Under the pieces are notes generated by a model. It made no database searches, had not been told where the DNA came from, and worked only from the letters and a program-made list of their open reading frames with translations. DNA of 64,000 bases from Squalus acanthias (lineage: Eukaryota). Positions within the stretch are counted from its first letter, which is position 1. Each line of letters opens with the position of its first letter. The DNA is taken from contig CM059432.1 of the NCBI GenBank assembly GCA_030390025.1, forward strand, positions 53,694,001-53,758,000. Direction: 5' to 3'. Positions 1-57,796 of the stretch are shown here, piece by piece. The position numbers and the translations under genes are program-made.

Positions 1-93
1 ATCCTCTGTCTTCTATCTTTCCTGATCTTACCCCGCCTGGGGTCTCCTCTACGTTGTCTCTGATTTTCATCCGCCATTAATTCATTAGTACAG

Positions 94-474
94 TTAGTCA
101 TGATTATAGATACACATTTGGCTTATGCACCAAAGTCTTATTACACAGATTACATATATCAAATATACGGTCATTACAAGCTGGAGAACTACCAGAGCAC
201 ATGAAATGATACGAACCTAAGGGTGAGCTGATATATAAACCCCAATATCCCACCAGTGTGAATCGTCCCTTATGCTGTCAATTTCAATATCTATTCTCGA
301 GTTGTCTTGCTCCAAAACATAAAATTGCTTTGGGGAGGAGTTCAGTCGCATCACTGAGCTCACTGAATTCCTCAGACAACAGGAGAATGTCGTACCTGAA
401 TTGTACCACATAACTGTGCAGCTCATACTGGATCGTATTGGCTTTTCCCACGCTCTGTTACCTACAAAACACAA
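94..474 (-). pseudogene. env: env C-terminal remnant (membrane-proximal region plus transmembrane helix)
   Basis: Reading through the TAG at 217-219 gives ...IDSIRDDSHWWDIGVYISAHP*VRIISCALVVLQLVMTVYLIYVICVIRLWC... It lies downstream of IN, and the duplicate copy places it just before the PPT. Confidence 0.6.
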
Positions 475-614
475 TTATTACAGTCACAGTTATAATTCAG
501 TATTACAATAATTAGCACGTCGACTAAGTACATACATTTCAAGTGACAATGATGCAAAACAAATAATACAGAAATTGTGAAGAAAGCTACAGTTTATCAT
601 CTAACCAGGAATAT

Positions 615-3600
615 TTATTCTTTCACAGTTTTCAACTGATTGATATGGTACCATTTAGCCACCTTGGCCCTCCCCTTTTTCCCAGGGAATTGGACCAGAT
701 AAACCGAAGGACTGGCCCTGTCAATAATCGGGAAGGGGCCATTCCACTTTGGTTCGAAGCAATGTTGCTTCTTCCCATAGTTTAGTACCATTATAACATC
801 TCCCACTTGATACTCAAATGGCCGGACCTTCTTGTTGAAGTATTTCTTTGCCTGGTTTTTTGATTTGCCTGTTTGTGTAGCTACAAACATGTTAGTTTGT
901 TCTATGTTCTCTACCACCATTTCAAGCCATTTTTGGTTGGCAATTCCCTGTAGTAAGGGTGTGGATGAAGGGGTTAACAGATGGACTGGCATTCGCATTA
1001 GTCGCCCGGTCATAGCCTGGTAGGGTGAGATACCCGTTGTGCTATGCGGGGTGAATCTAATAGCCATTAGACACATTGGCAACATACTGAACCATTTGGT
1101 GGGGTGATCTGCACAAAATTTGTTTAACAGAGTTTTCAGAGTTCGGTTTCCTCTTTCCACTACACCAGATGATTGTGGCTGATGGGAGATGTGAAGTCTA
1201 TGCGAAATACCCATTATCCATTGCAATTTGGTAAAAATTTGGGCGGTAAAGTGTGATCCCTGATCACTATCAACTTGAATTGGCACTCCCCACCTGCAGA
1301 TCACCTCACCCAATAGAAGGCGAGCTGCTGTGAATGCAGTGTTTGTTTTACATGAAAAAGCCTCCATTCATTTAGTAAATTTATCAACTATAACCAGGCA
1401 ATACCGCAAGCCAGAAGGTCCTGTAGGTAAGGGCCCTATAAAATCAATTTGAAGGTGGGTCCACGGCCCATCGGGAGGAGGGGGACTGCGCAACAGTGCC
1501 CGATTAGTGTGGGCACTTGGATTGTGCTGTAAACAGGGTAGACAACGATTCACCCTATGAGTGGCATCTGTGATGCAATCGGGATACCATACAAATTTGC
1601 GTAGTTTCTGAACAGTTGCGTCAGCTGAATAGTGCCCTCCTACCGGATGTGAGTGCAGGAGATCAAAAATTTCGGATGCCATGGATGGGGGAACACAGAC
1701 AACTGGGAGATCAGATGATAGCCACCGCATACGGGGGTTGAACATTAACAGGGGAGCAGCTTCCCCAGACTGATCCGGAGCCAATTGTGTGTCCGCAGCC
1801 CATGGAGTGGGCTGAGGTAACGGACATCCATTCTGATGCCATGCAATAACAACTGCATAGGGGGAATAACTGGACTGGAGGGAAGGGAGGTCAATGTCCC
1901 CACCTTGGATACTCGAGACTGATCCTAAGGGAGGGGTAGGGGCTTGCCAGAGGTCACCGTTAACAGCGGCGTCCTTGGCAGCATGATCTGCCTGTGAGTT
2001 ACCTTGGGTATGTACATCTGAAGAACGTGAATGGGACTTTACCTTACCAACATAGACAGGGGCTGATCGTGAATTTAAAGAGTCCCAAAGGGAAGCAACG
2101 AGGTCTGCATGGAGCAGGGTCTTGCCATCAACAGTACAAAAATTATTCCTAGCATACAGCGGTAAAGATAACAAAGTGTTAATCGCATAGGCACTATCTG
2201 ACCAGACATTAACAGGTATGTCATGAGTAATTTGGATTGCTGTCACCAGGGCTGCAACTTCAGCATATTGGGCAGAGTGGGGAATGCATTTATACTTAAG
2301 TTCTTGGTCAGGCATGACTACTGCCAATCCAGTAAGGGGCTTTCCGTCCCTGTGATAGGATGACCCATCAATATAGACGTTCTGGGCATCACTTAGCGGA
2401 GTAGGAGAGACGGGGTGATGGTCGAACTCCAGTGGTGGAAGGGGGCACTCACAGCTTCCCCCCTCGTATAGTAGGAGCTGAGGTAGTAGAGTTGTCTGCC
2501 TTGGCGTTATTTCCAAATCTCTCTGAGTTAACAGAATTGTCCAGTGACTGAGTCGGGCAGAGGAGACCAAAGTGTCCCCTGGTTTAAGTAAAAGATTCAA
2601 AGGGGTGTGGGGGCTATGTATGATCATTTTGTTCAGCCCAGTAATAAATGTGAAGTGTTTGATTGCCCAAAAAGTGGCTAGCAGATGTCGCTCACACACA
2701 GTGAAATTCTTTTCCACGCCATTCAAAATACGGGAGGCGAATGCGATTGGCATAAGTTTACCCTGTACCTTTTGGCACAGAACAGCAGCAAGACTCTGAT
2801 TGGTGGATCCCACCTCCAGGTGGAAAGGCTTATCTCGGTCAGGGCTTGTCAGGCATGTGGCTTGCATAACAGCAGTTTTAAGGAGGGACACAGCTGTTGT
2901 ATGTTCAGTGGTCCAGTCACAGGCCACAGCGTCCTCTTCACCCTTTAACAGTTTATATAATGGTTTGGCTAGCTCCGCAAATCTGGGAATAAATGAGCAC
3001 TGGTATCCCACTAGGCCCAGGAAGGAACGAAGTGCGGTTTTGGATGGGGGCAATGGTAAACGCTGAATCACCTCAATCTTATGCTGGTCAGGGCTGAGTC
3101 CCTTTTGTCCCACAGAAACCCCTAAAAATGTCACTTCTGGCTGTAACAGTTGTACCTTTTTGGGGTTAATTTTCAGCCCAGCTTTTAGAAGAAGGCTTAA
3201 TAGCTCTTCCATTAATTTAATATGAGTCTTTTTGTCAGGCGTTGCAAGCAAAAGGTCATCAACATACTGCAGCAGGCAGTCGGGTCTCGAAAAAGGTTTC
3301 AGTGCCTGAGCCATCCGTTTGTGGAATATAGTTGGGGTGTTGTGAAAGCCTTGAGGTAAACATGTCCAACTATAACTTTGATCTTCAAAAGTGAAGGCAA
3401 ACTTGTACTGATCCTCTGACTTAACATGAATACTCCAGAAGCCGTTTGAAATGTCAAAGGTGGAGAAGTAACAGGGGCAACACGGTGGCATAGTGATTAG
3501 CACTGTTGCCTCACAGCGCCAGGGACCCGGGTTCGAATCCGGCCTCGGATGACTGTCTGTGTGGAGTTTGCACATTCTCCCCGTGTCTGCGTGGGTTTCC

Positions 3601-4647
3601 TCCGGGTGCTCCGGTTTCCTCCCACAGTCCAAAGATGTGCGGGTTAGGTTGATTTGGCTATGATAAAAAATTGACCCTTAGTGTTAGGGGGGGATTAAAT
3701 ACGTGGGGTTACGGGGATAAGGTGGGATATGTGTTGGTGCAGGGTGGGATATGTGTCGGTGCAGGCTCGATGGGCCGAAATGGCCTCTATCTGCACTGTT
3801 GTGATTCTGTGAAGTAGCAGCTACCTGGTGGAATCTGGGACAGGAGAGTGGGTGTCTCCCGAACAACAGGGGCGCAAGCTGGGGTTACCGAATTAAGCTT
3901 ACGATAATCAATTGCTAGACGCCAGCTATCATCTGGTTTCTTAACTGGCCAGGTTGGAGAATTAGTGGTAAAAGTGCCAGTGCGGATAACACCCTGCTTT
4001 AACAATGAATTGATAGTAGACCGAACATAAGGTTTACTCTCAGCCGGAATGGAATACTGCTTAACAGGAGGGTGGGAGGGTCCATTAATCTCCTCATCTC
4101 CCGACATCCTACCACAATCATGTTTGGACTTAGCAAAAACCTCTGAAAATTTATGAATTAATGTATTAACCATGGGGTCTTCAGTCCCGGGAAGGGCGAA
4201 ATCTTCGGGTTTTTTAATTGCATATACCGAATGGGCATCCGAAATAGGTGTCAGTGGTCCGTCATTAAAGTGCCACTAAACACACTCACTAGCGTAGTCG
4301 AGGACAGCACAGTGTTTATGCAGCGTGTCACTTCCGAGGATACCTTTCTGGTCATGGGTGGCCATATATACAGGAGAGGGGACATCGACGGAATTCCCAT
4401 CAATGGACAAGACTGTGGAGCTCAATCCCTGATTAACTAACTGAGTAGAAGCATTAAAGCCAGAGAGGTTTAGGGCGGTGCCAGAATGGGAAAAGGGAGC
4501 GGGGTCATGTAAAATAGTCACGGCAGAACCGGAATCCACAAGCGTAACATGGCGGTGGCCTCCATGATCAGTGGCCCGGACAAAGGGTCGTCCGTCCTCC
4601 CCGTACCAGACAGGAAAAGAAGTGGTCACCGTGGAGGCCTCTGACCA
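615..4647 (-). pseudogene. pol: pol: protease, RT, tether, RNase H, integrase
   Basis: PR LVDSGS; RT WRLAIDYRKLN, LPQGFHN, QYVDD; degenerate RNase H (PIAFASRIL...CERHLLA); second RNase H (YIDGSS, SAQYAE, WSDSAY, GNSQAD); IN H..H/C..C, IDFIGP, DSDQG, SSGVVER. In-frame stops at 4276 and 1368, plus a SINE insertion. Confidence 0.92.
3475..3810 (+). mobile_element. tRNA-derived V-SINE (HE1-like) inserted in RT
   Basis: A/B boxes (TGGCATAGTG, GGTTCGAATCC), V-domain TGTGGAGTTTGCACATTCTCCCCGTG, CR1-like tail. TSD GAAGTA(A/G)CAG at 3465-3474 and 3811-3820; removing it rejoins RT. Confidence 0.9.
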
Positions 4648-7600
4648 TCACTGGGGCCGTGAGTCTGGGAGCGCATCTCCACTGCGAGAAACAGCCAAAA
4701 TGTTTTGCCCCCCCCCCCCCCCCGTCTGACTGTGCTTCATGGCCTCAACTACTGCTGAAAGGTGCTCGAGCTGCTGCTGCACAGAATTTAAATCAGACCC
4801 GTTACCTTCACGGATTGGGGGTTGGTAGCGTGGGCCATTTGGACGTCGACTATTGCGGCAGTCGCGAGCATAGTGTCTGGGCTTATAACAGTTATAACAG
4901 ATTACGTGGCGTTTGTCTCCCGACTGGGGAGGGGTTTGTGGAGTCAGAGGGCCCTCCACCACTGACATTTTGGACTCAGTAGGGGTGAGGGACGATTTAA
5001 CTCGGTCCCAAACTCGAATGCAAGCGTCCTTCAGATCAGCCCACGGGGTTCCCTGATGAACAGTAATACCAAGAGCGTCCCTTACAGGGGGTAAGAGAGC
5101 ATCAATGAATGTCAGCTTAAATCCCTCCGTGTCTCAAAACTCTTGACCACTACAGTTTTTCTGGGACTGGTTGTACAAATCATACAATCGATTTGCAAAG
5201 GCTACAGGATGCTCATTAGCCTTTTGCTGGGCGTCCCCAGCCTCATGGGTGAAATTAACTGCGTCCATGCCCAAACGGGAACAAACTGAATCCATAACAT
5301 CCCACCACCACTTACTTTTATCATAGATTTCCCGTGAAAGTGATAATTTGAGTTCCCGTGAAATGCATGACAACAGAACTTGTTTTAAGTCTGTCCACTC
5401 TAACTCAGGGTGACAGTGACGGAATGTACCCCACTAAAGTGGCAGGGGGTTGGGAACCTGAGGAGGGAGACAGAGGAAAGGGAAATAAGGATAAAAGCTA
5501 AAGACAGGAAGGAGAAAAACAAAAGTAGAAGGCAAAGAACTCAACGGTTTAAATCAAACATGGTCACAGTAAATAATAATTCATATAGGTCTGAGAGCGT
5601 TAAAAAAACAAGCCTGAAGGCTTTGTGTCTTAATGCAAGGAGCATTCGGAACAAGGTAGATGAATTAGCTGCGCAAATAGAGGTAAATGAATACGATTTG
5701 ATTGGGATTACAGAAACATGGCTCCAGGGTGGCCAAGGCTGGGAACTCAACATCCAGGGTTATTCAATACTTAGGAAAGATAGGCAAAAAAGAAAGGGAG
5801 GTGGGGTAGCATTGCTGGTTAAAGAGGGGATTAACACAATTGAAAGGAAGTATATCAGCTCTGATGTGCGGAATCTGTATGGGTAGAACTGAGAAATAAC
5901 AAGGGGCAGAAAATGTTAGTGGGAGTGGTATATAGACCTCCAAACAGTAAAACGGAGGTTGGGGACAGCATTAAAAGGGAAATTAGAGGAGCATGCAGTA
6001 AGGGCACAGCAGTCATCATGGGTGACTTTAATTTACATATAGATTGGGCTAACCAAATTAGTAAAAATACTGTGGAGGAGGAATTCCTAGAATGTTTACG
6101 AGATGGTTTTCTGGAACAATATGTCGAGGAACCAACCAGAGATCAGGCCATCTTAGACTGGGTATTATGCAACGAGAAAGGATTAATTAGCAATCTTGTT
6201 GTACGAGGCCCCTTGGGTCAGAGTGATCATAATATGATAGAATTCTTCATTAGGATGGAGAGTGAAGTAGTTGAATCAGAGACTAGGGTCCTGAATTTAA
6301 ATAAAGGAAACTACGATGGTATGAGGCGCGAATTGGGTAGGATTGATTGGGGAATGTCACTCAAGGGGTTGACGGTGGATAGGCAATTGCAAACATTCAA
6401 AGACTGCATGGATGAACTACAGAATTTGTACATCCCAGTGTGGCATAAGAATAAAACAAAAAGGGTGACTCAACCGTGGCGAACAAGGGAAATTAGGGAT
6501 AGCATAAGATCCAAGGAGAGGGCATATAAATTGACCAGAAAAAGCGGTAGCCCTGAGGATTGGGAGCAGTTTAGGATTCAACAAAGGAGGACAAAGGGAT
6601 TAATTAAGAAGGGGAAAATAGAATATGAAAGTAAGCTTGCTGGGAACATAAAAACTGACTGTAAGAGCTTTTATAGATATGTGAAGAGAAAAAGATTAGT
6701 GAAATCAAGTGTAGGTCCCTTGCAGTCAGAAGCGTGGGAAGTTATAATGGGGAACAAAGAAATGGCAGCCCAATTAAATGCATATTTTGGTTCTGTCTTC
6801 ACAAAGGAGGACACAAATAACCTCCCAGAGATGTTGGAGAACATATGGTCTGATGAAAGGGAGGAACTGAAAGAAATCAGTATTTGCAGGGAAATGGTGT
6901 TGGGGAAATCGAAGGTATTGAAGGCCGATAAATCCCCAGGGCCTGATAATCTACATCCTAGGGTACTTAAGGAAGTGGCCCTAGAAATAGTAGATGCATT
7001 GCTGATCATCTTCCAACATTCGATGGAATCTGGAACTGTACCCATGGATTGGAGGGTAGCTAATGTTACCCCACTATTCAAAAAGGGTGGTAGAGAGAAA
7101 GCGGGGAATTACAGACCGGTAAGCCTGACATCGGTAGTGGGGAAAATGCTAGAGTCCATTATAAAGGATGTAATAGCTGAGCATTTGAAAAACAGTGACA
7201 GGATCGGACAAAGTCAACATGGATTTACAAAAGGTAAATCGTGCTTGACTAATCTACTGCAATTTTTTGAGGATGTAACTGGGAAAATAGATAAGGGAGA
7301 ACCAGTAGATGTGGTGTATTTGGACTTTCAAAAGGCTTTCGATAAGGTCCCGCATAAGAGATTAGCGGGTAAAGTTAAGGCACATGGGATTGGGGGCAAG
7401 GTATTGACTTGGATAGAGAACTGGTTGGCGGACAGAAAGCAGAGAGTAGGAATTAATGGGTCTTTTTCCGAGTGGCAGGCAGTGACTAGTGGGGTACCGC
7501 AGGGATCGGTCCTTGGACCCCAGCTATTCACAATATACATTAATGATCTAGATAAGGGAATTAAATGTAATATCTCCAAGTTTGCAGATGACACAAAGCT

Positions 7601-9458
7601 GGGTGGGAGTGTGTGCAGCGAGGAGGATAGCGAGAAACTCCAGGATGATCTGGACAGGTTGGGTGAGTGGGCAGAAGCGTGGCAGATGCAATATAACGTG
7701 GATAAGTGCGAGGTTATCCACTTTGGTGTCAAAAACAGAAAGGCAGACTATTATCTGAATGGCAATAGATTGGGAGAAGGGGAAGTGCAACGAGACCTGG
7801 GTGTCCTTGTGCACCAGTCGCTGAAAGTAAGCATGCAGGTGCAGCAGGCGGTGAAGAAGGCAAATGGTATGTTGGCCTTCATAGCGAAAGGGTTTGAGTA
7901 TAGGAACAGGGATGTCCTGCTGCAGTTGTACAGGGCCTTGGTGAGACCACACCTTGAGTACTGTGTGCAGTTTTGGTCGCCTTATCTGAGGAAGGATGTT
8001 CTTGCCATGGAAGGAGTTCAGCGAAGATTCACAAGGCTGATACCTGGGATGGCAGGAATGACATATGAGGAGAGATTGAGTCGATTGGGCTTATACTCAC
8101 TGGAGTATAGAAGATTGAGAGGGGATCTCATCGAAACATATAAAATTCTGACAGGTCTGGACAAACTAGATGCAGGAAGAATGTTCCCGATGGTCGGAGA
8201 GTCCAGAACCAGGGGTCATAATCTACGGATAACGGGTAAACCATTTAGGACAGAAATGAGGAAGAATTTCTTCACCCAGAGAGTGGTGAACCTGTGGAAT
8301 TCTCTACCACAGAAGGTAGTTGAGGCGAGGTCATTAAATATATTCAAGGGTGAGTTAGATATATTTCTTAAAGCTAAAGGTATCAAGGGATATGGGGAGA
8401 AGGCAGGTACAGTGTACTGAGTTTAGATGATCAGCCATGATCTCATCGAATGGCGGAGCAGGCTCGAGGGGCCGAATGGCCTACTCCTGCTCCTATCTTC
8501 TATGTTTCTATTAATCACTTGTTAGGCCGACTGGGTTCGTCCCCCAGTTTATTGGCCCCATTTCTTCGGCTAGTGCTTTGCACTCTGCCGGGGTCAAACT
8601 TCTACTGGTGGTAGTAGTAGTTACTTCCACATTTGGGGGCAGGTTGTAGGCTACAGAAGATGTATCATTATCGAATTCATCATCCGAGGGTGTAGGGTCA
8701 CCAAATTGGGTGGTAGTAGTGACTATATTAACCTGCTTGGTATCTACCGGGGCAGTTTGTCCTGGATAGGGAGGTGGAGGCGCAGAGGGTGAGGGGCTAT
8801 TTTGGCAGATGGGGTTATTATTGCACTGGGCTTTTCTTGTTAGATTATTCCAGTTAATACCGGGATCCCCTGGTTTAAGGCGAGTAACGGCCGCAACAGC
8901 AGCTGTTTGTCTCCCCAGCTTTCCCTTCAATTCCATAATTTTTAATTCGCAGTGAGTATGGTCAGTGCTCACCAGAGGGGGGTTTTCAAGTAATTCTCTC
9001 AAGGCCCCCCTGGCGTCCTCAAGTTGTGAGATCAGGGATTCATTTTTTATTTTTAAAGCCTTGTTATCCTCAAACACCTGATGGTGGCGTCTTGAGGCAA
9101 GTCGTGCCTCATCTGCCAAGGCTTGTTCTTGATGGAGAAGTGTACAGACTGTGGCATGTCGGCCTTGCCAGTCCTGTAAGTCTCTTGCAAGTTGTGCATT
9201 TCTCTCTTTCAGGAGTACAACTTCGCCTCCCAAGCAAACAGCACACAAGTGGGCCGCGTAAGCCAGCCTATTTCTGGCTTCCTTAACTTTGCATTTCTTC
9301 GCACCCACCTGGGATGCTATCATGCCCCAAATCTCAGAGTAACTCTTCTCACTCTTCTCATCTCCCTGCACTATTCCGATTACTGCTCGGGCCCCCGGAA
9401 CCCCTAACTTATCCGAAAGACTGTTCGCAACCTTTTCTCTAAAATACGCATCTGCCAT
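4648..9458 (-). pseudogene. gag: gag, split by the CR1 insertion at about 5433-8510
   Basis: ATG at 9458 just downstream of the PBS; coiled-coil N-terminal half; PPPY and PSAP late-domain-like motifs; MHR-like QQKANEHPVAFANRL; CCHC knuckle CYNCYKPRHYARDC. Confidence 0.85.
5433..8510 (+). mobile_element. CR1 LINE, 5'-truncated at the ORF1/ORF2 junction (APE endonuclease + RT)
   Basis: ORFs 5410-5886 and 5913-8420 (one frameshift): NARSIRNK, ITETWL, GDFN, SDH, GVPQGS, FADD; (CTATGTTT)-type tail. Confidence 0.95.
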
Positions 9459-9550
9459 TTCGTTTTTACTTTACAACCCGATAAGAATGCCTAGTAACAT
9501 TATAGACTGAACCCGTCCTCAACTCGTTTCGACCACAACAACCCTGTTAC

Positions 9551-9570
9551 ACTCCTGGCTCGGCTCGCCA
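9551..9570 (-). promoter_or_regulatory. Primer-binding site complementary to tRNA-Arg(ACG)
   Basis: Minus strand TGGCGAGCCGAGCCAGGAGT, 3 nt after the LTR ...CTACA. Matches the recalled tRNA-Arg(ACG) 3' end ACTCCTGGCTGGCTCGCCA with one inserted base. Confidence 0.8.
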
Positions 9571-9573
9571 ATT

Positions 9574-10137
9574 TGTAGAGATTCAGGTATCTCTGGTAAA
9601 CAGGATCGAGTGCAAACCAATATGGTGGGTATATTGGGGGAAAAATTCAGTATCGCCCCATTTGAGGCGCAATTATCGGCCAGGCGCAAAGATTAGCGCC
9701 TGGCGCTAATTATCGCCTCCGACTGCAAACTTGACTTTTATCGGCCCTGGAGGTGATTGGAGCGCTAAATCAGGCGCTACACATCTGTCTTAAGGCGCAA
9801 AGGCCGAGGAGCGAGGCGCTAACTCAGAGCGCTGGCGAAGCTCATGTGATGTCAGTCAGCAATGGAACACAGACACAATGGCGCCGGCCAGTTCTTAAAG
9901 GGGAGGGTTGATCTTGCTTTCCATCCACATCCTGCTCATTGCAGCCTTGAATCTTGGCCTGGAGAGACCTGTACATCAAATCTGCTGGAAAGAATAATGG
10001 AGAGGCTGAAGGAAAGAGCTCAGAGTGCAGCCCCCACAGTCTCTTCTAAATCGATACAAGGAAGGGCAAATCAAAATGAACCTGCAAAGTGCTGCTCAGT
10101 ACCCAAAACTCCTTCACACAGCGTTGAATCTCTCCAG

Positions 10138-10168
<31 letters not shown>

Positions 10169-11717
10169 AGAATGCATGGTTCAAAAATGTCACCAACAAA
10201 AAAAGGCAGGAAGCGTTCGCCTTTAAATAGCGCTCCCCCAGTCCCTTCCTGACTGCAAAACGCTCCCCTCAACCTGTCGTTGTTAGCATCAGGCGGTAAG
10301 GCAGGGGGCGCCACTCAATATCCGCTCCGGGACGCTACCGGTGCGTTGCGCACTCGACTGATGTCACGATCTGCCGGCGCAGGAGATCGTGGCGGTACTG
10401 TTTAGCGCCGCCGCAAAATGTCTAGTTAATTTCGCGAGCGGCGCAAACATCGCCGCGCCCGGGCGCTAGTTGCTTTGCGGCCCATTAGCGCCCTCTTAAG
10501 GCGATAACGGGAGGCGCAACCAACTGAATTTTTCCCCCATTGTGTTTCATCAGAGTTTAGGACGGAATATAACACACTAGTAATACAGCAAAAACATATG
10601 ACCGTAACAAGCAGCTTGTACCGGACCCGATCAGACAGACGGCTGGCATGCGTGAGCAGTTCTCTGGCGTCTGGCCCCTCTCTCTCTCTCTCTCTCTCTC
10701 TAGGGCCTTCGATGGTGAGCATGGGATCACTCTCAAAAGAGCATTCGACCAGCCCAACTTCTCTTTTTAACTTCTGTTTGGCTCTCCCTTCCACCGTCTG
10801 TGTGCAAGCCCTTGGGGTGTCACTTTTTATTCTCTTTTTAGGGGTGGGCCTGAGGCCACGTTATTGACAAGACCATTTAACCTATAGAGGTTCCTCCAAA
10901 ACTTCATCAACCAGTGATAGCTCAAGTTCTTTGTGTTGGTGCTTGGATGAAAGTCCTCCCCAAAGAGGGTCTCATTACTTCATCCTTATTTTTACATTTT
11001 GAAGGTTCCTCCATTGGAATCCATCTTATCTCTTTTTACTCTCTCCCCCTTAACCCAGCAAGTACAAGGCCCGGCCCTGTCCTTCTGGCCCCAGCCAGAG
11101 CTGTCGCACATTAACCAGTCGCTATCTCACCATTCTGACCTTCATGATTCCCTCCCCTTTTCTGCTGTGATCGTTTCTCTCAGAACTTTTACATAGCCAG
11201 ACTTCCCATGAATTACGCTGCTTTCAGTGTTCAGTAGCTGTTGTTTTATACCTTTTTTTCCCTTTCAAAATACATGGCAACTTGCAGCTGCTTGGGCTAT
11301 CTCACCTTCACCTAACAAATGGCCCATTCTAAGATGGATACCTTCGCCTCCTCAAATTCCTTTCATTCTATGTCTTTTCCTAATTAACTTTTAATTATCT
11401 TCTCAAGCAGTTCTGCTAAACAAAACTCCAAATTCTATCTGTGGAGATTATAATATGATTATTAGTAATAATGGAAGAAACATAGGTTGGGCCTTTACTG
11501 GCCAAATTAAAGATACATTAACAAAGTCAAAACCCTAACTTACAAACAACAGATAACTAGCCTGGCAGGACCATCCTATGGGCCCCCGTGTGGAATGTTT
11601 ATGTTTCACCTAATCTAACTGATTAAAAAGACTGTCATAAATTCTAATGCAAGCTTTCCAGGAAAATGAAACTTATCATTTAAACACAGTATTTTTAGGC
11701 ACCCCTAGTTTCTAACA
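9574..11717 (-). repeat. LTR (about 1.24 kb after removing the MITE)
   Basis: Starts TGTTAGA right after a PPT-like AAGGTGGGGAC (11718-11728) and ends TCTACA before the PBS. Candidate TATAAAA near 11245 and AATAAA near 10826. Confidence 0.75.
9636..10538. mobile_element. PIF/Harbinger-type MITE
   Basis: TIRs GGGGGAAAAATTCAGT / ACTGAATTTTTCCCCC; 3-bp TSD ATT; homologous inverted copy at 41677-42569. Confidence 0.85.
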
Positions 11718-12430
11718 GTCCCCACCTTGAGAGGGAGAAAAACTCTATTTCGACCTCTCATTTACAAACCTCTACCAACCATGCCAATTCTAAATTATTG
11801 GTTCGACGGTTCAATTCACTATTCCGGTGTTCCAATTCTGCCCCGCCTGGGGTATCCTCTGTCTTCTATCTTTCCTGATCTTACCCCGCCTGGGGTCTCC
11901 TCTATGTTGCCTCTGACTTTCATCCGTCATTAATTCATTAGTACAGTTAGTCATGATTATAGATACACATTTGGCTTATGCACCAAAGTCTTATTACACA
12001 GATTACATATATCAAATATACGGTCATTACAAGTTGGAGAACTACCAGAGCATGTGAAATGATACGAACCTAAGGGTGAGCTGATATATAAACCCCAATA
12101 TCCCACCAGTGTGAATCGTCCCTTATGCTGTCAATTTCAATATCTATTCTCGAGTTGTCTTGCTCCAAAACATAAAATTGCTTTAGGGAGGAGTTCAGTC
12201 GCATCACGAGCTCACTGAATTCCTCAGACAACAGGAGAATGTTGTACCTGAATTGTACCACATAACTGTGCAGCTCATATTGGATCATATTGGCTTTTCC
12301 CACGCTCTGTTACCGACAAAACACAATTATTACAGTCACAGTTATAATTCAGTCTTACAATCATTAGCACGTCGACTAAGTACATACATTTCAAGCGACA
12401 ATGGTACAAAACAAAGAATACAGAAATTGT
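11718..12430 (-). repeat. Second copy of the provirus 3' internal region (env remnant + PPT), upstream of the LTR
   Basis: 11854-12430 is a near-identical direct repeat of 1-579. Confidence 0.9.
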
Positions 12431-12545
12431 AGGCTTTCTGTGCATGTGTGAGTATGTTCCTGACCGGAGTCATGAGCCATGTCATGAGGGGATAAGTCTT
12501 GTTGCCTAGTAGCCAGCCTTTGACTTGCCATGGTGGTTCAAATAC

Positions 12546-14163
12546 AGGGATTGAAGGCCGATAAATCCCCAGGGCCTGATAATCTACATCCTAGGGTACT
12601 TAAGGAAGTGGCCCTAGAAATAGTAGATGCATTGCTGATCATCTTCCAACATTCGATGGAATCTGGAACAGTACCCATGGATTGGAGGGTAGCTAATGTT
12701 ACCTCACTATTCAAAAAGGGTGGTAGAGAGAAAGCGGGGAATTACAGACCGGTAAGCCTGACATCGGTAGTGGGGAAAATGCTAGAGTCCATTATAAAGG
12801 ATGTAATAGCTGAGCACTTGAAAAACAGTGACAGGATCAGACAAAGTCAACATGGATTTACAAAAGGTAAATCGTGCTTGACTAATCTACTGCAATTTTT
12901 TGAGGATGTAACTGGGAAAATAGATAAGGGAGAACCAGTAGATGTGGTGTATTTGGACTTTCAAAAGGCTTTCGATAAGGTCCCGCATAAGAGATTAGCG
13001 TGTAAAGTTAAGGCACATGGGATTGGGGGCAAGGTATTGACTTGGATAGAGAACTGGTTGGCGGACAGAAAGGAGAGAGTAGGAATTAATTGGTCTTTTT
13101 CCGAGTGGCAGGCAGTGACTAGTGGGGTACCGCAGGGATCGGTCCTTGGACCCCAGCTATTCACAATATACATTAATGATCTAGATAAGGAAACTAAATG
13201 TAATATCTCCAAGTTTGCAGTTGACACAAAGCTGGGTGGGCGTGTGTGCTGCGAGGAGGATACTGAGAAACTCCAGGATGATTTGGACAGGTTGGGTGAG
13301 TGGGCAGAAGCGTGGCAGATGCAATATAACGTGGATAAATGCAAGGTTATCCACTTTGGTGTCAAAAACAGAAAGGCAGACTATTATCTGAATGGCAATA
13401 GATTGGGAGAAGGGGAAGTGCAACGAGACCTGGGTGTCCTTGTGCACCAGTCGCTGAAGGTAAGCATGCAGGTGCAGCAGGCGGTGAAGAAGGCAAATGG
13501 TATGTTGGCCTTCATAGCGAAAGGGTTTGAGTATAGAAACAGGGATGTCCTGCTGCAGTTGTACAGGGCCTTGGTGAGACCACACCTTGAGTACTGTGTG
13601 CAGTTTTGGTCGCCTTATCTGAGGAAGGATGTTCTTGCCATGGAAGGAGTGCAGCGAAGATTCACAAGGCTAATACCTGGGATGGCAGGAATGACATATG
13701 AGGAGAGATTGGGTCGATTAGGCTTATACTCGCTGGAGTATAGAAGAATGAGAGGGGATCTCATCGAAACATATAAAATTCTGACAGGTCTGCACAAACT
13801 AGATGCAGGAAGAATGTTCCCGATGGTCGGAGAGTCCAGAACCAGGGGTCATAATCTAAGGATAAGGGGTAAGCCATTTAGGACAGAAATGAGGAAGAAT
13901 TTCTTCACCCAGAGAGTGGTGAACCTGTGGAATTCTCTACCACAGAAGGTAGTTGAGGCCAAGTCATTAAATATATTCAAGAATGAGTAAGATATATTTC
14001 TTAAAGCTAAAGGTATCATGGGATATGGGGAGAAGGCAGGTACAGGGTACTGACTTTGGATGATCAGCCATGATCTCATCGAATGGCGGAGCAGGCTCGA
14101 GGGGCCGAATGGCCTACTCCTGCTCCTATCTTCTATGTTTCTATGTTTTTCTATGTTTCTATG
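12546..14163 (+). mobile_element. 5'-truncated CR1 (RT only)
   Basis: ORF 12530-13990; FADD changed to FAVD; (CTATGTTT)n tail. Confidence 0.95.
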
Positions 14164-14164
14164 T

Positions 14165-14850
14165 AGGTGGAACAGAGGACTGCCGCACAATGGAAGAATC
14201 GCGACTGCTGCCACGATAACGGACATTCACCTGCATGATATGCTGCCTGTGGTCGCACACCAGCTGCACAACGAGGGAATGGAATCCCTTTCAGTTCGTG
14301 AAAATCGCCGAGTTCAGATGAGGCACACGAAGGGCAATATGCGTGCAGTCAATGGTACCCTGAACCAAGAGGAAGCCTGCAATCCATGCAAAACCTCATG
14401 CTCGCTCCTCCTGCTTGTGCAATGAGATGAATGTGTTTCTCTTTGTATAAAGAACCCCTTATATAGCAGTGCACTGCAAACTGCGAGATTTTGCTTATAT
14501 CTCCAGCAGCACCCTCGAAGGAGCAAGATGCATAAATGTTAAGAGCCACGATCACCTTGACAGCCACAGGCAATGCTGTCCTTGACCTGCTTTGAGGTTG
14601 CAGTTGTGGCCGCAGCAGTTGGCAGATTTCACACATGACCTCTTTAGTGAAGCGAAGACGTCTCACGCATTGGTCCTCGGTGAAGTTGAGGCAAGAGAAT
14701 TGCTCTCTGAAGCCCCTGGGTGGATATGTCCTCCTGCTGAGTGCCCTTCTCCCCCTCCTCCTCCTCCTCTTTAGCAGCTTGTCCTGCTCTGCGTGGCCTC
14801 TCTTCATTCTCCCAGTCATGTTCAATTCCCAAAGGAAGCCCTACCAGGCC
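14165..14850 (-). pseudogene. Harbinger (HARBI1-like) transposase remnant
   Basis: CVRRLRFTKE...ALPVAVKVIVALNIYAS; downstream frame VQLVCDHRQHIMQVNVRYRGSS; frameshifted. Confidence 0.8.
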
Positions 14851-14854
14851 ACTT

Positions 14855-50927: not shown

Positions 50928-51815
50928 TTACTATTTGTGGCATTTTACTTCAGGGTATATTTTCATCCTCTTTTCAATAAAATGATTGATCTGGGGTTTT
51001 TTTGCAGATTTTCATGTCTGACAGAAAACCAACCAATGTGACTGCGCCTGTAAAAACGTTGTCCTTGAAATGCTCAATCACCCGTTGTAACTCCGGGTGG
51101 GAGTTCGGTGGAACTCAGAAGCGGCTTCAATGCTGTAAATGGTTAAAAACAGCCATCTATGCTGTATCCCTGGGGTTCTGCTGGTCTTCTGCCGAAGTTA
51201 CGGTGGGAGATCAGGAGAAGCTCTGCTGAATTTCCAGGCTTCTCAATAGCTAATGAGCCAGTTAATTGGTATAAATTATTTCAAAAATGTATTCATTAAA
51301 GGTTTTGATAGAGTAAATAAGGAGAACTGTTTCCACTGGCAAAAAGGCCTGTAACCTGAGGACACAGATTTAAAGTAATTGGAATGCACTGCCTGAAAGG
51401 GTAGTGGAAGCAGATTCAGTAGTAACTTTTAAAAGGGAATTGGATATATACTTGAAAGAAAGAAAGAAAGAGTTGCATTTATATAGCGCCTTTCACCACC
51501 ACCGGACATTCAAAGCGCTTTACAGTCAATGAGGTACTTTTGAAGTGGAGTCACTGTTGTAATGTAGGAAATGCAGCAGCCAATTTGCGCACAGCAAGGT
51601 CCCACAAACAGCAATGTGATAATGACCAGATAATCTGTTTTTTGTTACATTGGTTGAGGGAAATAGGGCCATGGGATCTTTTACATTCACCTGAGAGAGC
51701 AGATGGGGCCTCGGTTTAACGTCTCATCCGAAAGACGGCACCTCCAACAGTGCAGCACTCCCTCAGCACTGTACTGGAGCGTCAGCCTAGCTTTATGTGC
51801 TCAAGTCCCTGGAGT

Positions 51816-54517
51816 ATAGAAACATAGAAGATAGGAGCAGGAGTAGGCCATTCGGCCCCTCGAGCCTGCTCCGCCATTTAATGAGATCATGGCTGATCAT
51901 CCAAATTCAGTACCCTGTCCCTGCTTTCTCCCCAGATCCCTTTAGCCTTAAGAAATATATCTATCTCCTTCTTGAATATATTTAATGAATTGGCCTCAAC
52001 TGCCTTCTGTGGTAGAGAATTCCACAGGTTCACCACTCTCTGGGTGAAGAAATTCTTCCTCATTTCTGTCCTAAATGGCTTACCCCTTATCCTTAGATTA
52101 TGACCCCTGGTTCTGGACTCTCCGACCATCGGGAACATTCTTCCTGCTTCTAGTTTGTCCAGACCTGTCAGAATTTTATATGTTTCGATGAGATCCCCTC
52201 TCATTCTTCTATACTCCAGCGAGTATAAGCCTAATCGACCCAATCTCTCCTCATATGTCATTCCTGCCATCCCAGGTATTAGACTTGTGAATCTTCGCTG
52301 CACTCCTTCCATGGCAAGAACATCCTTCCTCAGATAAGGCGACCAAAACTGCACACAGTACTCAAGGTGTGGTCTCACCAAGGCCCTGTACAACTGCAGC
52401 AGGACATCCCTGTTCCTATACTCAAACCCTTTCGCTATGAAGGCCAACATACCATTTGCCTTCTTCAACGCCTGCTGCACCTGCATGCTTACCTTCAGCG
52501 ACTGGTGCACAAGGACACCCAGGTCTCGTTGCACTTGCCCTTCTCCCAATCTATTGCCATTCAGATAATAGTCTGCCTTTCTGTTTTTGACACCAAAGTG
52601 GATAACCTCGCATTTATCCATGTTATATTGCATCTGCCACGCTTCTGCCCACTCACCCAACCTGTCCAAATCATCCTGGAGTTTCTCGGTATCCTCCTCG
52701 CAGCACACACGCCCACCCAGCTTTGTGTCATCTGCAAACTTGGAGATATTACAGTTAGTTTCCTTATCTAGATCATTAATGTATATTGTGAATAGCTGGG
52801 GTCCAAGGACCGATCCCTGCGGTACCCGACTAGTCACTGCCTGCCACTCGGAAAAAGACCAATGAATTCCTACTCTCTCCTTTCTGTCCGCCAACCAGTT
52901 CTCTATCCAAGTCAATACCTTGCCCCCAATCCCATGTGCCTTAACTTTACACGCTAATCTCTTATGCGGGACCTTATCGAAAGCCTTTTGAAAGTCCAAA
53001 TACACCACATCTACTGGTTCTCCCTTATCTATTTTCCCAGTTACATCCTCAAAAAATTCCAGTAGATTAGTCAAGCACGATTTACCTTTTGTAAATCCAT
53101 GTTGACTTTGTCTGATCCTGTCACTGTTTTCCAAGAGCTCAGCTATTACATCCTTTATAATGGACTCTAGCATTTTCCCCACTACCGATGTCAGGCTTAC
53201 CGGTCTGTAATTCCCCGCTTTCTCTCTACCACCCTTTTTGAATAGTGGGGTAACATTAGCTACCCTCCAATCCATGGGTACATTTCCAGATTCCATCGAA
53301 TGTTGGAAGATGATCAGCAATGCATCTACTATTTCTAGGGCCACTTCCTTAAGTACCCTAGGATGTAGATTATAAGGCCCTGGGGATTTATCGGCCTTCA
53401 ATCCCTGTATTTGAACCACCATGGCAAGTCAAAGGCTGGCTACTAGGCAACAAGACTTATCCCCTCATGACATGGCTCATGACTCCGGTCAGGAACATAC
53501 TCACACATGCACAGAAAGCCTAAAATTTCTGTATTCTTTGTTTTGTATCATTGTCGCTTGAAATGTATGTACTTAGTCGACGTGCTAATGATTGTAAGAC
53601 TGAATTATAACTGTGACTGTAATAATTGTGTTTTGTCGGTAACAGAGCATGGGAAAAGCCAATACGATCCAATATGAGCTGCCCAGTTATGTGGTACAAT
53701 TCAGGTACGACATTCTCCTGTTGTCTGAGGAATTCAGTGAGCTCATGATGCGAATGAACTCGCCCCTAAAGCAATTTTATGTTTTGGAGCAAGACAACTC
53801 GAGAATAGATATTGAAATTGACAGCATAAGGGACGATTCACACTGGTGGGATATTGGGGTTTATATATCAGCTCACCCTTAGGTTCGTATCATTTCACAT
53901 GCTCTGGTAGTTCTCCAACTTGTAATGACCGTATATTTGATATATGTAATCTGTGTAATAAGACTTTGATGCATAAGCCAAATGTGTATCTATAATCATG
54001 ACTAACTGTACTAATGAATTAATGACGGATGAAAATCAGAGGCAACATAGAGGAGACCCCAGGCGGGGTAAGATCAGGAAAGATAGAAGACAGAGGATAC
54101 CCCAGGCGGGGCAGAATTGGAACACCGGAATAGTGAATTGAACCGTCGAACCAATAATTTAGAATTGGCATGGTTGGTAGAGGTTCATAAATGAGAGGTC
54201 GAAATAGAGTTTTTCTCCCTCTCAAGGTGGGGACTGTTAGAAACTAGGGGTGCCTAAAAATACTGTGTTTAAATGATAAGTTTTGTTTTCCTGGAAAGCT
54301 TGCATTAGAATTTATGACAGTCTTTTTAATCAGTTAGATTAGGTGAAACATAAACATTCCACACGGGGGCCCATAGGATGGTCCTGCCAGGCTGGTTATC
54401 TGTTGTTTGTAAGTTAGGGTTTTGACTTTGTTAATGTATCTTTAATTTGGCCAGTAAAGGCCCAACCTATGTTTCTTCAATTATTACTAATAACCATATT
54501 ATAATCTCCACAGATAG
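51816..54517 (-). repeat. Inverted duplicate of about 11435-14145 (LTR U3 part + PPT + env remnant + spacer + CR1 RT)
   Basis: Paired ORFs 51887-53422/12530-13990, 53649-53882/12070-12303 and 54019-54225/11727-11933. Confidence 0.95.
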
Positions 54518-57500
54518 TGTGGTCTCACCTAGGCCTTGTACAACTGCAGCAAGACATCCTTGCTCCTGTACTCGAATCCTCTCGCTATGAAGGTCAACAT
54601 ACCATTTGCCTTCTTAACCGCCTGCTGCACCTGCATGCTTACCTTCAGCGACTGGTGCACAAGGACTCCCAGATCTTGTTGCACTTCCCCTTTTCCCAAT
54701 CTATTGCCGTTCAGATAATAATCTGTCTTCCTATTTTTGCCACCAAAGTGGATAACCTCGCATTTATCCACATTATATTGCATCTGCCATGCATCTGCCC
54801 AATCACCCAACCTGTCCAAATCATCCTGAAGTTTCTCGGCATCCTCCTCATAGCACACACGCCCACCCAGCTTTGTGTCATCTGCAAACTTGGAGATATT
54901 ACATCTAGTTCCCTTGTCTAGATCATTTATATATATTGTGAATAGCTGGGGTCCTAGCACTGATCCCTGTGGTACCCCACTAGTCACTGCCTGCCACTCG
55001 GAAAAAGACCCGTTTATTCCAACTCTTTGCTTCCTGTCTGCCAACCAGTTCTCTATCCAAATCAGTACCTCACCCCCAATCCCATGTGCTTTAACTTTGC
55101 ACGCTAATCTCTTATGCGGGACCTTATCAAAAGCCTTCTGAAAGTCCAAATACACCACATCAACTGGTTCTCCCTTATCTATTCTACCAGTTACATCCTC
55201 AAAAAATTCCAGTAGATTAGTCAGGCATGATTTCCCTTTTGTAAATTCATGTTGACTTTGTCCAATCCTGTCACTGTTTTCCAAGTGCTCTGCTATTACA
55301 TCTTTTATAATGGACTCTAGCATTTTCCCCACTACCGATGTCAGGCTTACCGGCCTATAATTCCCCGTTTTCTCTCTACCACCTTTTTTAAATAGTGGGG
55401 TTACATTAGATACCCTCCAATCCATGGGAACTGTTCCAGAGTCTATAGAATTTTGAAAGATGACCAGCAATGCATCAACTATTTCTAGGGCCACTTCCTT
55501 AAGTACCCTAGGATGTAGATTATCAGGCCTTGGGGATTTATCGGCCTTCAATCCCGTCAATTTCCCTAACACCATTTCCCTACAAATACTGATTTCATTC
55601 AATTCCTCCCTCTCATTAGACCCTATGTTCCCCGACATCTCTAGGAGGTTATTTGTGTCCTCCTTTGTGAAGACAGAACCAAAGTATATAGTTTATTCGT
55701 CAGCCATTTCTTTGTTCCCCATTATAAATTCCCCTGATTCTGACTGCAAGGGACATAGAAACATAGAAACATAGAATCTAGGAGCAGGAGTAGGCCATTC
55801 GGCCCGTCGAGCCTGCTCCGCCATTCAATACGATCATGGCTGATCATCCAAATCCAGTACCCTGTCCCTGCTTTAATCCCCACAGTACACATATCCCACC
55901 CTACCCCCGTAACCCCACGTATTTAATTCCCCCTAACATATCCCATCCTATCCCCATAACCCCACATATTTAATCCCCCCTAACACTAAGGGTCAATTTA
56001 TCATAGCCAAATCAACCTAACCCACACACCTACGCTTGACTTCACCAATCTTTTTCTCTTCCCATATCTATAGAAGCTTTTACAGTCAGTTTTTATGTCC
56101 CAACAAGCTTACTCTCATATTCTATTTTCCCCCTCTGAATTAATCCCTTTGTCCTCCTTTGCTGAATCCTAAACTGCTCCCAGTCCTCAGGTTTGCTGCT
56201 TTTTCTGGCCAATTTATATGTCCTCTCCTTGGATCTTATGGTATTCCTAATTTCCCTTGTTAGCCACGGTTGAGTCACCTTTTTTTTGTGCCAAACAGGG
56301 ATGAACAAATTCTGTAGTTCATCCATGCGATCTTTAAATGTTTGCAATTGCCTATCCACCGTCAACCCTTTAAGTAACGCTCTCCAATCCACCCTAGCCA
56401 ACTCGCGCCTCATACCATCGTAGTTTCCTTTATTTAAATTGAGCACCCTAGTCGCTGAGTCAACTACTTCACTCTCCATCTTAATGAAGAATTCTATCTC
56501 ATTATGATCGCTCCTCCCCAAGGGGCCTTGCACAACAAGATTGCTAATTAATCCTTTCTCATTACATAATACCCAGTCTAAGATGGCCTGATCTCTAGTT
56601 GGTTCCTCGACATATTGGTCCAGGAAACCATCCCGTATAAACTCTAGGAATTCCTCCTCCACAGTATTGTTACTAATTTGGTTAGCCCAATCTATATGTA
56701 GATTAAAGTCACCCATGATAACTGCTGTGCCCTTATTGCACGCTTCTCTAATTTCCCGTTTAATGTCATCCCCAACCTCAGCATTACTGTTTGGGGGTCT
56801 GGATACAACTCCCACTAACGTTTTCTGCCCCTTGGTATTTCTCAGCTCTACCCATACAGATTCCACATCATCAGAGCTAATATCCTTCCTTACTATTGTG
56901 TTAATCTCCTCTTTAACCAGCAATGCTACCCCACCTCCTTTTCCTTTTTGTCTGTCCTTCCTGAATATTGAATACCCCTGGATGTTGAATTCTCAGTCTT
57001 GGTCACCCTGGAGCCATGTCTCCGTAATCCCAATTATATCATATCCGTTTACATCTATTTGCGCAGCTAATTCATCCACCTTAGTACGAATGCTCCTCGC
57101 ATTAAGACACAAAGCCTTCAGGCTTGTTTTTTTAACACTCTTAGTCCTTTTAGAATTATTATTTACTGTAGCCCTGTTTGATTTACACCCTTGATTTCTC
57201 TGCCTTCCACTTTTGCTTTTCTCCTTCCTGTCTTTTGCTTCTATCCTTGCTTCCCTTTCCTCTGTTTCCCTGCACAGGTTCTCAACCCCCTGCCATTTAA
57301 GTTTAAACCCTCCCCAACAGCACTAGCAAACACTCCCCCTAGGACATCGGTCCCGGTCCTGCCCAGGTGCAAACCGTCCAGTTTGTACTAGTCCCACCTC
57401 CCCCAGAACTGGTTCCAATGTCCCAGGAATTTGAATCCCTCCCCCTTGCACCATTCCTCTAGCCACATATTCATCTGAAATATCCTTCTATTTCTACTCT

Positions 57501-57796
57501 GACTAGCACGTGGCACTGGTAGCAATCCTGAGATTACTACCTTTGAGGTCCTATTTTTTAATTTACCTCCTAACTCCCTATATTTAGCTTTTAGGACCTC
57601 ATCCCATTTTTTACCTATATCGTTGGTACCTATATGCACCACGACAACTGGCTGTTCACCCTCCCCCTCCAGAATGCCCTGCAGCCGCTCCAAGACATCC
57701 TTGACCCTTGCACCAGGGAGGCAACATACCATCCTGGAGTCTCATTTGCGGCCGCAGAAACGCCCATCTATTCCCCTTACAATAAAATTCCCTATT
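54518..57796 (-). mobile_element. CR1 (partial ORF1 esterase + ORF2 EN/RT), 3'-truncated at the chimera junction
   Basis: ORFs 57388-57732, 56093-56923 and 54529-55638. Confidence 0.92.
55753..56027 (-). mobile_element. 5'-truncated V-SINE with long CR1 tail
   Basis: Near-identical to about 42570-42820; splits CR1 ORF2. Confidence 0.85.

What the first reader, a model, noticed from the sequence alone, without database searches (positions are those of the whole stretch)
11435..14163. env/U3-spacer-CR1 chimera duplicated in inverted orientation about 40 kb away, inside one 6-kb insertion
Seen: about 11435-14145 recurs as 54517-51816. There it is fused to a different CR1 cut within RT (...GTGAGACCACAC|TATCTGTGG). 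The whole block 51816-57796 splits one Deu-SINE and ends in a CR1 tail. Inference: CR1-mediated 5' transduction with template switching carried retroviral sequence, or a later ectopic recombination or conversion event did.
Basis: partly seen in the sequence, partly recalled or inferred. Interest (0 to 1): 0.7.

Follow-up and report, generated by a model that had tools for sequence, protein, structure and literature searches.

The report
Nested mobile elements copied during DNA repair
In a shark-like genome, an ordinary pile of dead mobile elements was copied about 40 kb away into another retrotransposon, most likely when a broken chromosome used a similar nearby element as its repair template; this is a clear case of a known kind of duplication, not a new element.

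Summary
The duplication is real. 11435-14144 (A) recurs inverted at 54517-51816 (B) at 97.8%, and the flanks are not duplicated. The 'chimera' is not an element. The 'spacer' is a Harbinger transposase fragment that continues in frame in A's right flank, split by an ordinary 5'-truncated CR1 with an AGG target duplication. Position 11435 lies inside the U3 of a provirus. So A is a nested pile and the donor; B is the copy. B sits inside an older CR1 (E). Its last ~190 bp differ from A's subfamily as much as E does (17 of 187 against 90 of 1037), so they are probably E's own 3' end. Best model (0.62): a break in E was repaired by one-sided invasion of A's 91%-identical CR1; about 2.5 kb was copied and rejoined at a 1-bp microhomology. 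This works like a repair-mediated duplication. Junction 54517 is not confirmed by reads. Side lead: the provirus looks lokiretrovirus-like.

The parts
11435..11717 (-). Donor A: first ~280 bp of U3 of a retroviral LTR (LTR 11717 to 9574, split by a 914-bp TIR element at 9635-10548). 11435 is only where the copied tract ends.
   Evidence: Purine tract 11728-11718 then TGT; LTR end CA at 9574 and primer-binding site 9570-9553. Run contigs continue past the matching point in B (records 15, 30, 31). The LTR start is inferred.
11718..12430 (-). Donor A: polypurine tract, 3' untranslated region and the C-terminal remnant of an env-like gene (heptad, WW motif, transmembrane stretch), broken by stops and frameshifts in all three copies
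   Evidence: 5 homologues at E 1.3e-9 to 1.5e-4; 4 of the 5 are named shark or skate proteins; tblastn places them at 12285-11989; 96.7% to 1-578 directly behind the integrase
12431..12548 (-). Donor A: the 'spacer', a PIF/Harbinger transposase fragment
   Evidence: Atlas top hits Plant_tran/DDE_Tnp_4, 0.93-0.95; colinear and in frame with the right flank in loci L002 and L003
12549..14164 (+). Donor A: 5'-truncated CR1 (RT 3' half, UTR, CTATGTTT-type tail), flanked by AGG at 12546-12548 and 14165-14167
   Evidence: 97.6% to CR1 D 6913-8511; junction print-out; closest named relatives are elasmobranch CR1 proteins at 64-77%
14165..14840 (-). Rest of the Harbinger relic, not copied to B
   Evidence: PF13359 DDE_Tnp_4 positions 1-64, E 1.5e-11, for 14165-14398; the extent to 14840 is read by eye from the open frame
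52002..54517 (-). Copy B: tract copied from A 11435-~13950 (U3 piece, env remnant, Harbinger fragment, CR1 body)
   Evidence: 39 differences in 2515 bp; carries A's state at 4 sites where D and E agree against it (12839, 13073, 13091, 13191)
51816..52001 (-). CR1 3' end and tail of B, probably the resident CR1 E's own end
   Evidence: Change point at A-coordinate 13950 (support 13907-13984); 17 of 187 differences from D, as for E against D
54518..57795 (-). Resident CR1 E (5'-truncated, about 9-11% from D), cut in RT at 54518 and interrupted by a SINE fragment with a CR1-type tail at 55758-56027
   Evidence: Blast and binned divergence
57796..57870 (-). tRNA-derived head of the SINE split by E
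   Evidence: B-box/T-arm half seen directly
51461..51815 (-). Body and tail of the split SINE; 2 nt of the T-arm stem are missing at the target
   Evidence: 77% to another copy at 23152-23534; the 2-nt loss is inferred from T-stem pairing
1..9574 (-). Provirus sharing the LTR with A's env piece (gag, protease, RT, tether, RNase H, integrase, env remnant); gag is split by CR1 D at 5433-8511 and RT by a SINE at 3461-3780
   Evidence: ORFs and Pfam

Best explanation
A repair-mediated duplication primed by LINE homeology. SHOWN: at A, a Harbinger relic abuts the env-PPT-LTR end of a provirus, and a young CR1 inserted into the Harbinger frame with a 3-bp target duplication. At the second locus an older CR1 (E) lies inside a SINE, inverted relative to A and about 91% identical to A's CR1. 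B was copied from A, not the reverse. INFERRED: a double-strand break fell in E's RT 3' region. The tail-side end invaded A's CR1 about 190 bp from the tail and copied about 2.5 kb through the CR1, out of homology, through the Harbinger and env pieces and into U3. It then disengaged and was joined to the other broken end at a 1-bp microhomology. About 365 bp of E were replaced. There was no crossover, so no inversion. The product has no evident function.
For: Direction: the Harbinger frame on both sides of A's CR1 is exactly colinear with intact relatives once AGG is counted once (L002, L003), and B lacks the far side. B shares 4 states with A against both D and E. Homologous end: the mismatch change point at 13950 was reached in 14 of 5000 permutations. 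B against D is 17 of 187 in the tail and 36 of 1401 in the body (Fisher 5.5e-5, boundary chosen after the fact), matching E against D at 90 of 1037. Of 10 tail sites where A=D but B differs, 6 carry the state of other CR1/SINE copies in the window, against 2 of 13 in the body (p 0.039). Run contigs from two other coded organisms carry B's tail states at two sites (loose ends at 51942, 26 and 35 records). Nine of the 13 B-specific body sites appear among the 40 rows shown as letters that nearly all contigs read otherwise, while no shown row falls in the tail (77 rows not shown). Non-homologous end: 1-bp microhomology, no filler, no target duplication. The donor is on the same chromosome, 38 kb away. 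No intron-like gap in 2.5 kb.
Against: E's original 3' end cannot be seen, so the tail assignment is indirect. The tail is also more variable between A and D (9 of 195 against 30 of 1401, p 0.046). The window-scan test weakens to 614 of 20000 when adjacent changes are merged (121 of 20000 unmerged). With copy F as the only outgroup, state sharing is 5 of 10 against 2 of 13, p 0.17. Two body sites (12821, 12893), where B has the E/outgroup state against A and D, are unexplained. Size and distance lie outside the class that Pace et al. could call RDs with confidence (within 5 kb, up to 619 bp). No listed contig bridges 54517. An RNA template has the same polarity and would leave the same scar.
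Confidence: 0.62

Rival explanations
1. RNA route in two steps, or RNA-templated repair. A + strand transcript from the LTR (antisense to the provirus) ran through env, Harbinger and the CR1 3' end. CR1 RT copied it in trans, either into E at 54518 with later recombination between the two CR1 3' parts, or by priming directly on E's broken end.
For: B's outer end lies in U3, where an antisense start is plausible (general knowledge of LTRs; not tested). The transcript would carry the CR1 3' end that stringent LINEs need (PMC3747384 passages). It predicts the same E-type tail. Pace et al. found that most sampled duplicons on other chromosomes bore retrotransposition marks (17 of 29).
Against: It needs either two events or a landing 38 kb from the source in a multi-gigabase genome. 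No splice gap, no target duplication. No listed contig shows the CR1-spacer junction as a family; the listed loose ends at 53405 run on as normal CR1 (tables cut).
Confidence: 0.22
2. One reading: one target-primed insertion into the SINE, with template switches between a chimera RNA and an E-type CR1 RNA.
For: The whole block sits at one SINE position with a 2-nt loss and ends in a CR1 tail.
Against: With an E-type tail it needs two switches, E to A and back to E, about 365 nt apart on the same RNA, plus a cis-proximal landing. A resident E explains the SINE split equally well.
Confidence: 0.07
3. Replication template switching (FoSTeS/MMBIR) rather than two-ended break repair: a stalled fork in E switched to A by CR1 homeology and returned by microhomology.
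For: Same scar: one homeologous and one microhomologous junction, a cis-proximal donor.
Against: A single copied tract with no further switches or filler. It cannot be told from the best model by sequence alone.
Confidence: 0.06
4. Assembly artefact or haplotype duplication.
For: No read or contig shown bridges 54517; no whole genome is held.
Against: A and B differ at 52 positions spread along the tract, with private changes on both sides. The flanks are unrelated. B lies within a coherent SINE > E nesting.
Confidence: 0.03

Closest known systems
Repair-mediated duplications (RDs) by SDSA capture of nearby DNA, Pace et al. 2009, PMC2671141 (read: abstract, introduction, first of three parts of Results, passages)
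   Same: Donor and acceptor on one chromosome; acceptor interrupts a transposable element; microhomology plus deletion at a breakpoint; no poly(A) or target duplication; the inverted orientation occurs in their set too (ACSBG2 example).
   Different: Their 824 confident RDs lie within 5 kb and reach at most 619 bp (distant set up to 3424 bp). This one is about 2.5 kb at 38 kb, and one end is a long homeologous junction in a LINE rather than a microhomology.
One-sided invasion / HR coupled to end joining (Belmaaza and Chartrand 1994, seen only as a reference title in PMC4888836; mechanism recalled)
   Same: One homologous junction, copying beyond the homology, one non-homologous junction.
   Different: Described at induced breaks (recalled); here it is a germ-line fossil with a 91%-identical template.
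LINE 5' transduction and chimeric LINE insertions (definition recalled; one search gave search listings only)
   Same: Upstream flank joined to a LINE 3' part and found at a new site.
   Different: The donor is a truncated passive CR1; the copy's 3' end does not look like the donor's; no target duplication or splicing.
Lokiretroviruses, Wang and Han 2021, PMC7947760 (read: parts 1-2 of 4 of the main text, passages, one supplementary table searched) - for the provirus that supplies the env/U3 piece
   Same: Tether plus second RNase H; gag-pol-env with LTR; env C-terminus related to proteins with a basic cleavage site and a weak F-protein hit; pol branches with coelacanth and frog sequences outside gamma/epsilon-like rows.
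   Different: Their abstract lists no cartilaginous fish. PF00523 was not hit, and no named lokiretrovirus was available for the tree.

Membership tests
Repair-mediated duplication (Pace 2009) | Inserted copy of at least 50 bp interrupts a TE and has an identifiable donor more than 50 bp away | tested here: met
   B lies inside CR1 E; A is shown to be the donor
Repair-mediated duplication (Pace 2009) | Breakpoints show microhomology, deletion or filler, without poly(A) or retrotransposition TSD | tested here: met
   1-bp microhomology at 54517, about 365 bp of E replaced, no TSD; the loss depends on the tail being E's
Repair-mediated duplication (Pace 2009) | Donor within 5 kb (their confident class) | tested here: not met
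   Gap of 37.7 kb
Repair-mediated duplication (Pace 2009) | The two TE halves resume within 30 bp of consensus position | tested here: not met
   E stops at A-coordinate 13585 and E-type sequence resumes near 13950
Repair-mediated duplication (Pace 2009) | [quoted passage not shown] | not testable with these tools
   No genome held; contigs are short and tables cut
LINE 5' transduction | New copy carries the donor element's own 3' end | tested here: not met
   B's tail departs from A and D; moderate strength, and a later recombination could hide it
LINE 5' transduction | Marks of an RNA intermediate or TPRT at the new site (splicing, TSD) | tested here: inconclusive
   None seen, but CR1 insertions often lack TSDs (recalled) and the tract need not hold an intron
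LINE 5' transduction | Upstream promoter reading into the element | not testable with these tools
   No holder on record as RNA
PIF/Harbinger transposase (spacer) | DDE_Tnp_4 homology, colinear with the flank | tested here: met
Lokiretrovirus (provirus 1-11717) | Tether plus second RNase H in pol | tested here: met
   RT_RNaseH at residues 207-311 and RNase_H at 359-498; shared with all retroviruses, so not specific
Lokiretrovirus (provirus 1-11717) | RT groups in the clade sister to other retroviruses | tested here: inconclusive
   Groups with Latimeria and Pyxicephalus rows (96/92), apart from 21 gamma/epsilon-like rows and 14 gypsy-like rows; 38 rows, my labels, no named loki, foamy or class II/III row
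Lokiretrovirus (provirus 1-11717) | Env related to Mononegavirales F (PF00523) with RXKR site | tested here: inconclusive
   No Pfam hit in six frames; of 5 homologues one hits Baculo_F at E 0.0011, below cut-off, and one shows RHRR
DeuSINE / SacSINE1 (split SINE) | Deu core domain | not testable with these tools
   No SINE library; Rfam gave 0 matches. The likeness is recalled; PMC3747384 lists SacSINE1 as a tRNA-headed shark DeuSINE (passage)

The most novel reading that the evidence does not exclude
In shark genomes crowded with 90%-identical CR1 copies, breaks inside a CR1 routinely prime on a neighbouring CR1 tens of kb away and copy kilobases of its flank. This would be a LINE-guided local duplication route that mimics 5' transduction, moves LTR and env pieces without any RNA step, and can be counted genome-wide by its scar: one subfamily switch inside the LINE and one blunt junction.
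Probability: 0.25. Interest if true: 0.55.

Novelty: new member of a known kind. Interest (0 to 1): 0.3.

Why it matters
As a single locus it matters little: every part is a dead mobile element. Its value is as a worked example. Nesting fixes the direction of copying, and a subfamily switch marks the homologous end, so an apparent 'CR1 5' transduction of retroviral DNA' resolves into local repair. If such scars are common, they would add a route to kilobase duplications in LINE-rich genomes and caution against reading LINE-flank chimeras as transductions. The lokiretrovirus-like provirus beside it may deserve its own look.

Tried and rejected
Genome-wide junction search: no genome held. Env by Pfam in six frames: 0 hits; word-seeded search: 0 of 54 candidates; Atlas: no usable hit; only the exhaustive search found homologues. 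One pol frame was out of frame and was redone. Linking E-type bodies to B-type tails through database proteins failed: among the 120 listed of 4158 hits the highest identity was 83%, too distant. A 25-nt CR1 pattern in metagenome contigs gave 0 matches. Runs: no RNA holder listed. Four contig sets were laid, 4 of 22 listed runs; no listed piece bridges 54517, 53522 or 53405 by 31 letters, but the tables were cut and about 2-3 Gb per run would rarely assemble a one- or two-copy junction, so this is no evidence either way. No unsplit copy of the SINE head exists in the window. One Fisher table (6 of 9) was mis-entered and is replaced. Rejected: a spliced antisense transcript as the source of the 12430 and 12546 junctions (the spacer is Harbinger DNA continuous with the flank); a new non-autonomous element family (no junction at 11435 in A); a larger inverted duplication, or a crossover inversion between A and E (A keeps its Harbinger flank); conversion from the SINE tail at 55753-55882 as the sole source of B's tail (it does not cover 13950-14025). 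Earlier scan findings: nothing returned. Paper searches: one search found 0 papers. Searches listed no paper titled on lokiretroviruses in sharks; PMC11089739 passages mention them only for ray-finned and jawless fish. Of the loki paper's supplements only one cut table was held; its sequence sets, which bear on membership, were not seen.

Full report
OBSERVATION. Self-BLAST confirms that 11435-14144 (A) recurs at 54517-51816 (B) on the opposite strand at 97.8% over 2710 columns: 51 substitutions and one 8-bp gap. The 1-kb flanks give only chance scores, so the duplication is limited to this tract. The same search shows a third copy of the retroviral piece at 1-578 (96.7%), a sister CR1 (D, 5433-8511; 97.6% to A's CR1), and the CR1 into which B is fused (E, 54518-57795; 91.5% to A's CR1). 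The host is probably an elasmobranch: the closest named CR1 proteins come from rays, skates and sharks, and 4 of 5 env homologues are named shark or skate proteins. No whole genome is held.

WHAT A IS. Read on the minus strand, 12430-11435 is the 3' end of a provirus. The exhaustive protein search found 5 homologues of the 120-codon env remnant (E 1.3e-9 to 1.5e-4), which align at 12285-11989. One has an RHRR site and one a sub-threshold Baculo_F hit. Pfam itself finds nothing in six frames, and the piece is broken by stops and frameshifts in all three copies. A purine tract at 11728-11718 precedes TGT at 11717; the LTR ends in CA at 9574, before a primer-binding site at 9570-9553. That gives about 1230 bp once a 914-bp TIR element is left out. 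So 'env/U3' is right, but 11435 lies inside U3 and is no junction in A. Run contigs also continue past the matching point (records 15, 30, 31). The same LTR heads the provirus at 9574-1, a tandem arrangement.

THE SPACER. The 118 bp at 12431-12548 translate on the minus strand to a peptide whose best Atlas clusters are Plant_tran/DDE_Tnp_4 (0.93-0.95). A's right flank, 14165-14398, matches DDE_Tnp_4 positions 1-64 at E 1.5e-11. In 2 of 5 fetched Harbinger loci (L002, L003) the flank piece ends at base 825 and the spacer piece resumes in the same frame at 832 or 835, exactly as expected if AGG at 12546-12548 and 14165-14167 is a target duplication. L004 and L005 match both pieces in different frames; L001 gave no clear spacer hit. 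A's CR1 is therefore an ordinary 5'-truncated insertion into a Harbinger relic. The chimera was built in place, and since B has only the near side of the Harbinger, A is the donor. B also shares 4 states with A against both D and E.

WHAT B IS. The block 51816-57795 splits a tRNA-headed SINE; T-stem pairing implies a 2-nt loss (inference). The block is not one insertion: E holds a SINE fragment at 55758-56027 as well as B. At 54517 E stops in RT and B begins, sharing one C, with no filler or duplication. At the other end the A-B mismatch rate jumps from 39 in 2515 bp to 13 in 195 bp. The change point is at A-coordinate 13950 (support 13907-13984), reached in 14 of 5000 permutations; a 200-bp scan gives 121 of 20000, or 614 of 20000 with adjacent changes merged. 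In that tail B differs from D at 17 of 187 sites, the level of E against D (90 of 1037), against 36 of 1401 in the body. Six of 10 B-specific tail sites carry states of other copies in the window, against 2 of 13 in the body (p 0.039; p 0.17 with copy F alone). Loose ends at 51942 in two runs carry B's states at two sites. Nine of 13 B-specific body sites show as near-private letters while no shown row lies in the tail, though 77 rows were hidden. Against this, the tail is also somewhat more variable between A and D (9 of 195 against 30 of 1401), and two body sites where B has the outgroup state remain unexplained. On balance B's last ~190 bp are E's own end.

MECHANISM. One long homeologous junction, copying beyond the homology, one blunt junction, a donor 38 kb away and no inversion: this is the scar expected from one-sided invasion during break repair (0.62; the steps are inferred). 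An RNA template from an antisense LTR transcript has the same polarity. It could give the same product by priming on E's broken end, or by insertion followed by recombination (0.22); proximity and the lack of splicing, target duplication or listed dispersed junctions weigh against it, but only moderately. A single insertion with template switches needs two switches on the same RNA (0.07). Fork template switching (0.06) is not separable by sequence. An artefact is unlikely given private changes on both copies (0.03), although no listed contig bridges 54517. At 7e-10 per base per generation (PMC10587355, passages; another species, wide interval), 1.55% divergence is of the order of 10^7 generations.

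COMPARISON. It works like the repair-mediated duplications of Pace et al. 2009 (PMC2671141). It fails two of their operational filters (within 5 kb; TE halves resuming within 30 bp), so it is not a member of their confident set. It is larger, more distant and primed by LINE homeology. Ectopic recombination between repeats during break repair is well known (PMC7407515 passages). It fails the main test for 5' transduction, carrying the donor's 3' end, at moderate strength.

VERDICT. Real and well resolved, but a new member of a known kind, built from dead elements: interest 0.3. The boldest reading left open is that CR1-guided copying of flanks is a common duplication route in shark genomes (probability 0.25, interest 0.55). 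The provirus has a tether plus second RNase H, its best hits are coelacanth and frog proteins at 38-40%, and it branches with them apart from gamma/epsilon-like rows. It is a lokiretrovirus-like lead whose membership is untested.

Noticed in passing
window 1-11717 (-): Provirus with tether plus second RNase H, a zinc-knuckle gag, an N-terminal frame that looks coiled-coil by eye (8511-9470, no Pfam hit), a primer-binding site recalled as tRNA-Arg and an F-type-like env remnant. It groups with Latimeria and Pyxicephalus pol (96/92). Lokiretrovirus-like; the founding paper's abstract lists no cartilaginous fish.
   Followed up: partly
window 1-614 (-): Only the C-terminal env remnant follows the integrase stop (36 bp gap), so this copy lacks most of env. 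Run contigs show the piece is multi-copy in all 4 runs laid, from 3 coded organisms, suggesting an env-deleted subfamily.
   Followed up: partly
window 9574-12430 (-): Tandem arrangement env-PPT-LTR-PBS-gag: one LTR serves two units. The upstream unit is cut at 12430, where it meets a Harbinger frame in mid-gene (probably an old deletion). The two env pieces differ at 19 of 577 sites.
   Followed up: partly
window 9635-10548 and 41669-42570: Two copies (84.7%) of a ~910-bp element with GGGG...CCCC terminal inverted repeats, probably a Harbinger-type non-autonomous element; one splits the LTR.
   Followed up: no
window 5433-8511 (+): CR1 D with an 851-codon open EN-RT frame inserted in gag; same young subfamily as A's CR1.
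   Followed up: partly
window 36200-40226 (-): Near full-length CR1 (F) with a 1002-codon open ORF2 and a 315-codon ORF1 carrying a GDSL/SGNH esterase domain (PF13472, E 1.4e-13).
   Followed up: no
window 13021-13093 equivalent sites: A 12821 and 12893 (B 53131, 53059): B has the E/outgroup state where A and D share a derived one; possible short conversion tracts or back-mutation. Unexplained.
   Followed up: partly
window 14775-15563 (+) and 24585-26900 (-): Two Penelope-like GIY-YIG element pieces, 89% identical over 699 bp.
   Followed up: no
window 40509-41082: Tandem array with a period of about 152 bp, about 97.7% identical units.
   Followed up: no
window 48470-49215 (-): Integrase fragment of a second LTR element (PF17921, PF00665).
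   Followed up: no
window 31673-33260 and 59950-61517: Inverted pair of another LINE family, 90.4% over 1.6 kb; a further candidate template pair for the same kind of event.
   Followed up: no
window 19960-20052 (+): ARAGORN tRNA-Ser(AGA) call; could be a gene or a SINE head.
   Followed up: no
P0230, P0231 (database proteins): Env-like segments of this family are fused into predicted fbxo15 (Heterodontus) and cadherin-related 5-like (Pristiophorus) proteins; mis-prediction or exonisation.
   Followed up: no
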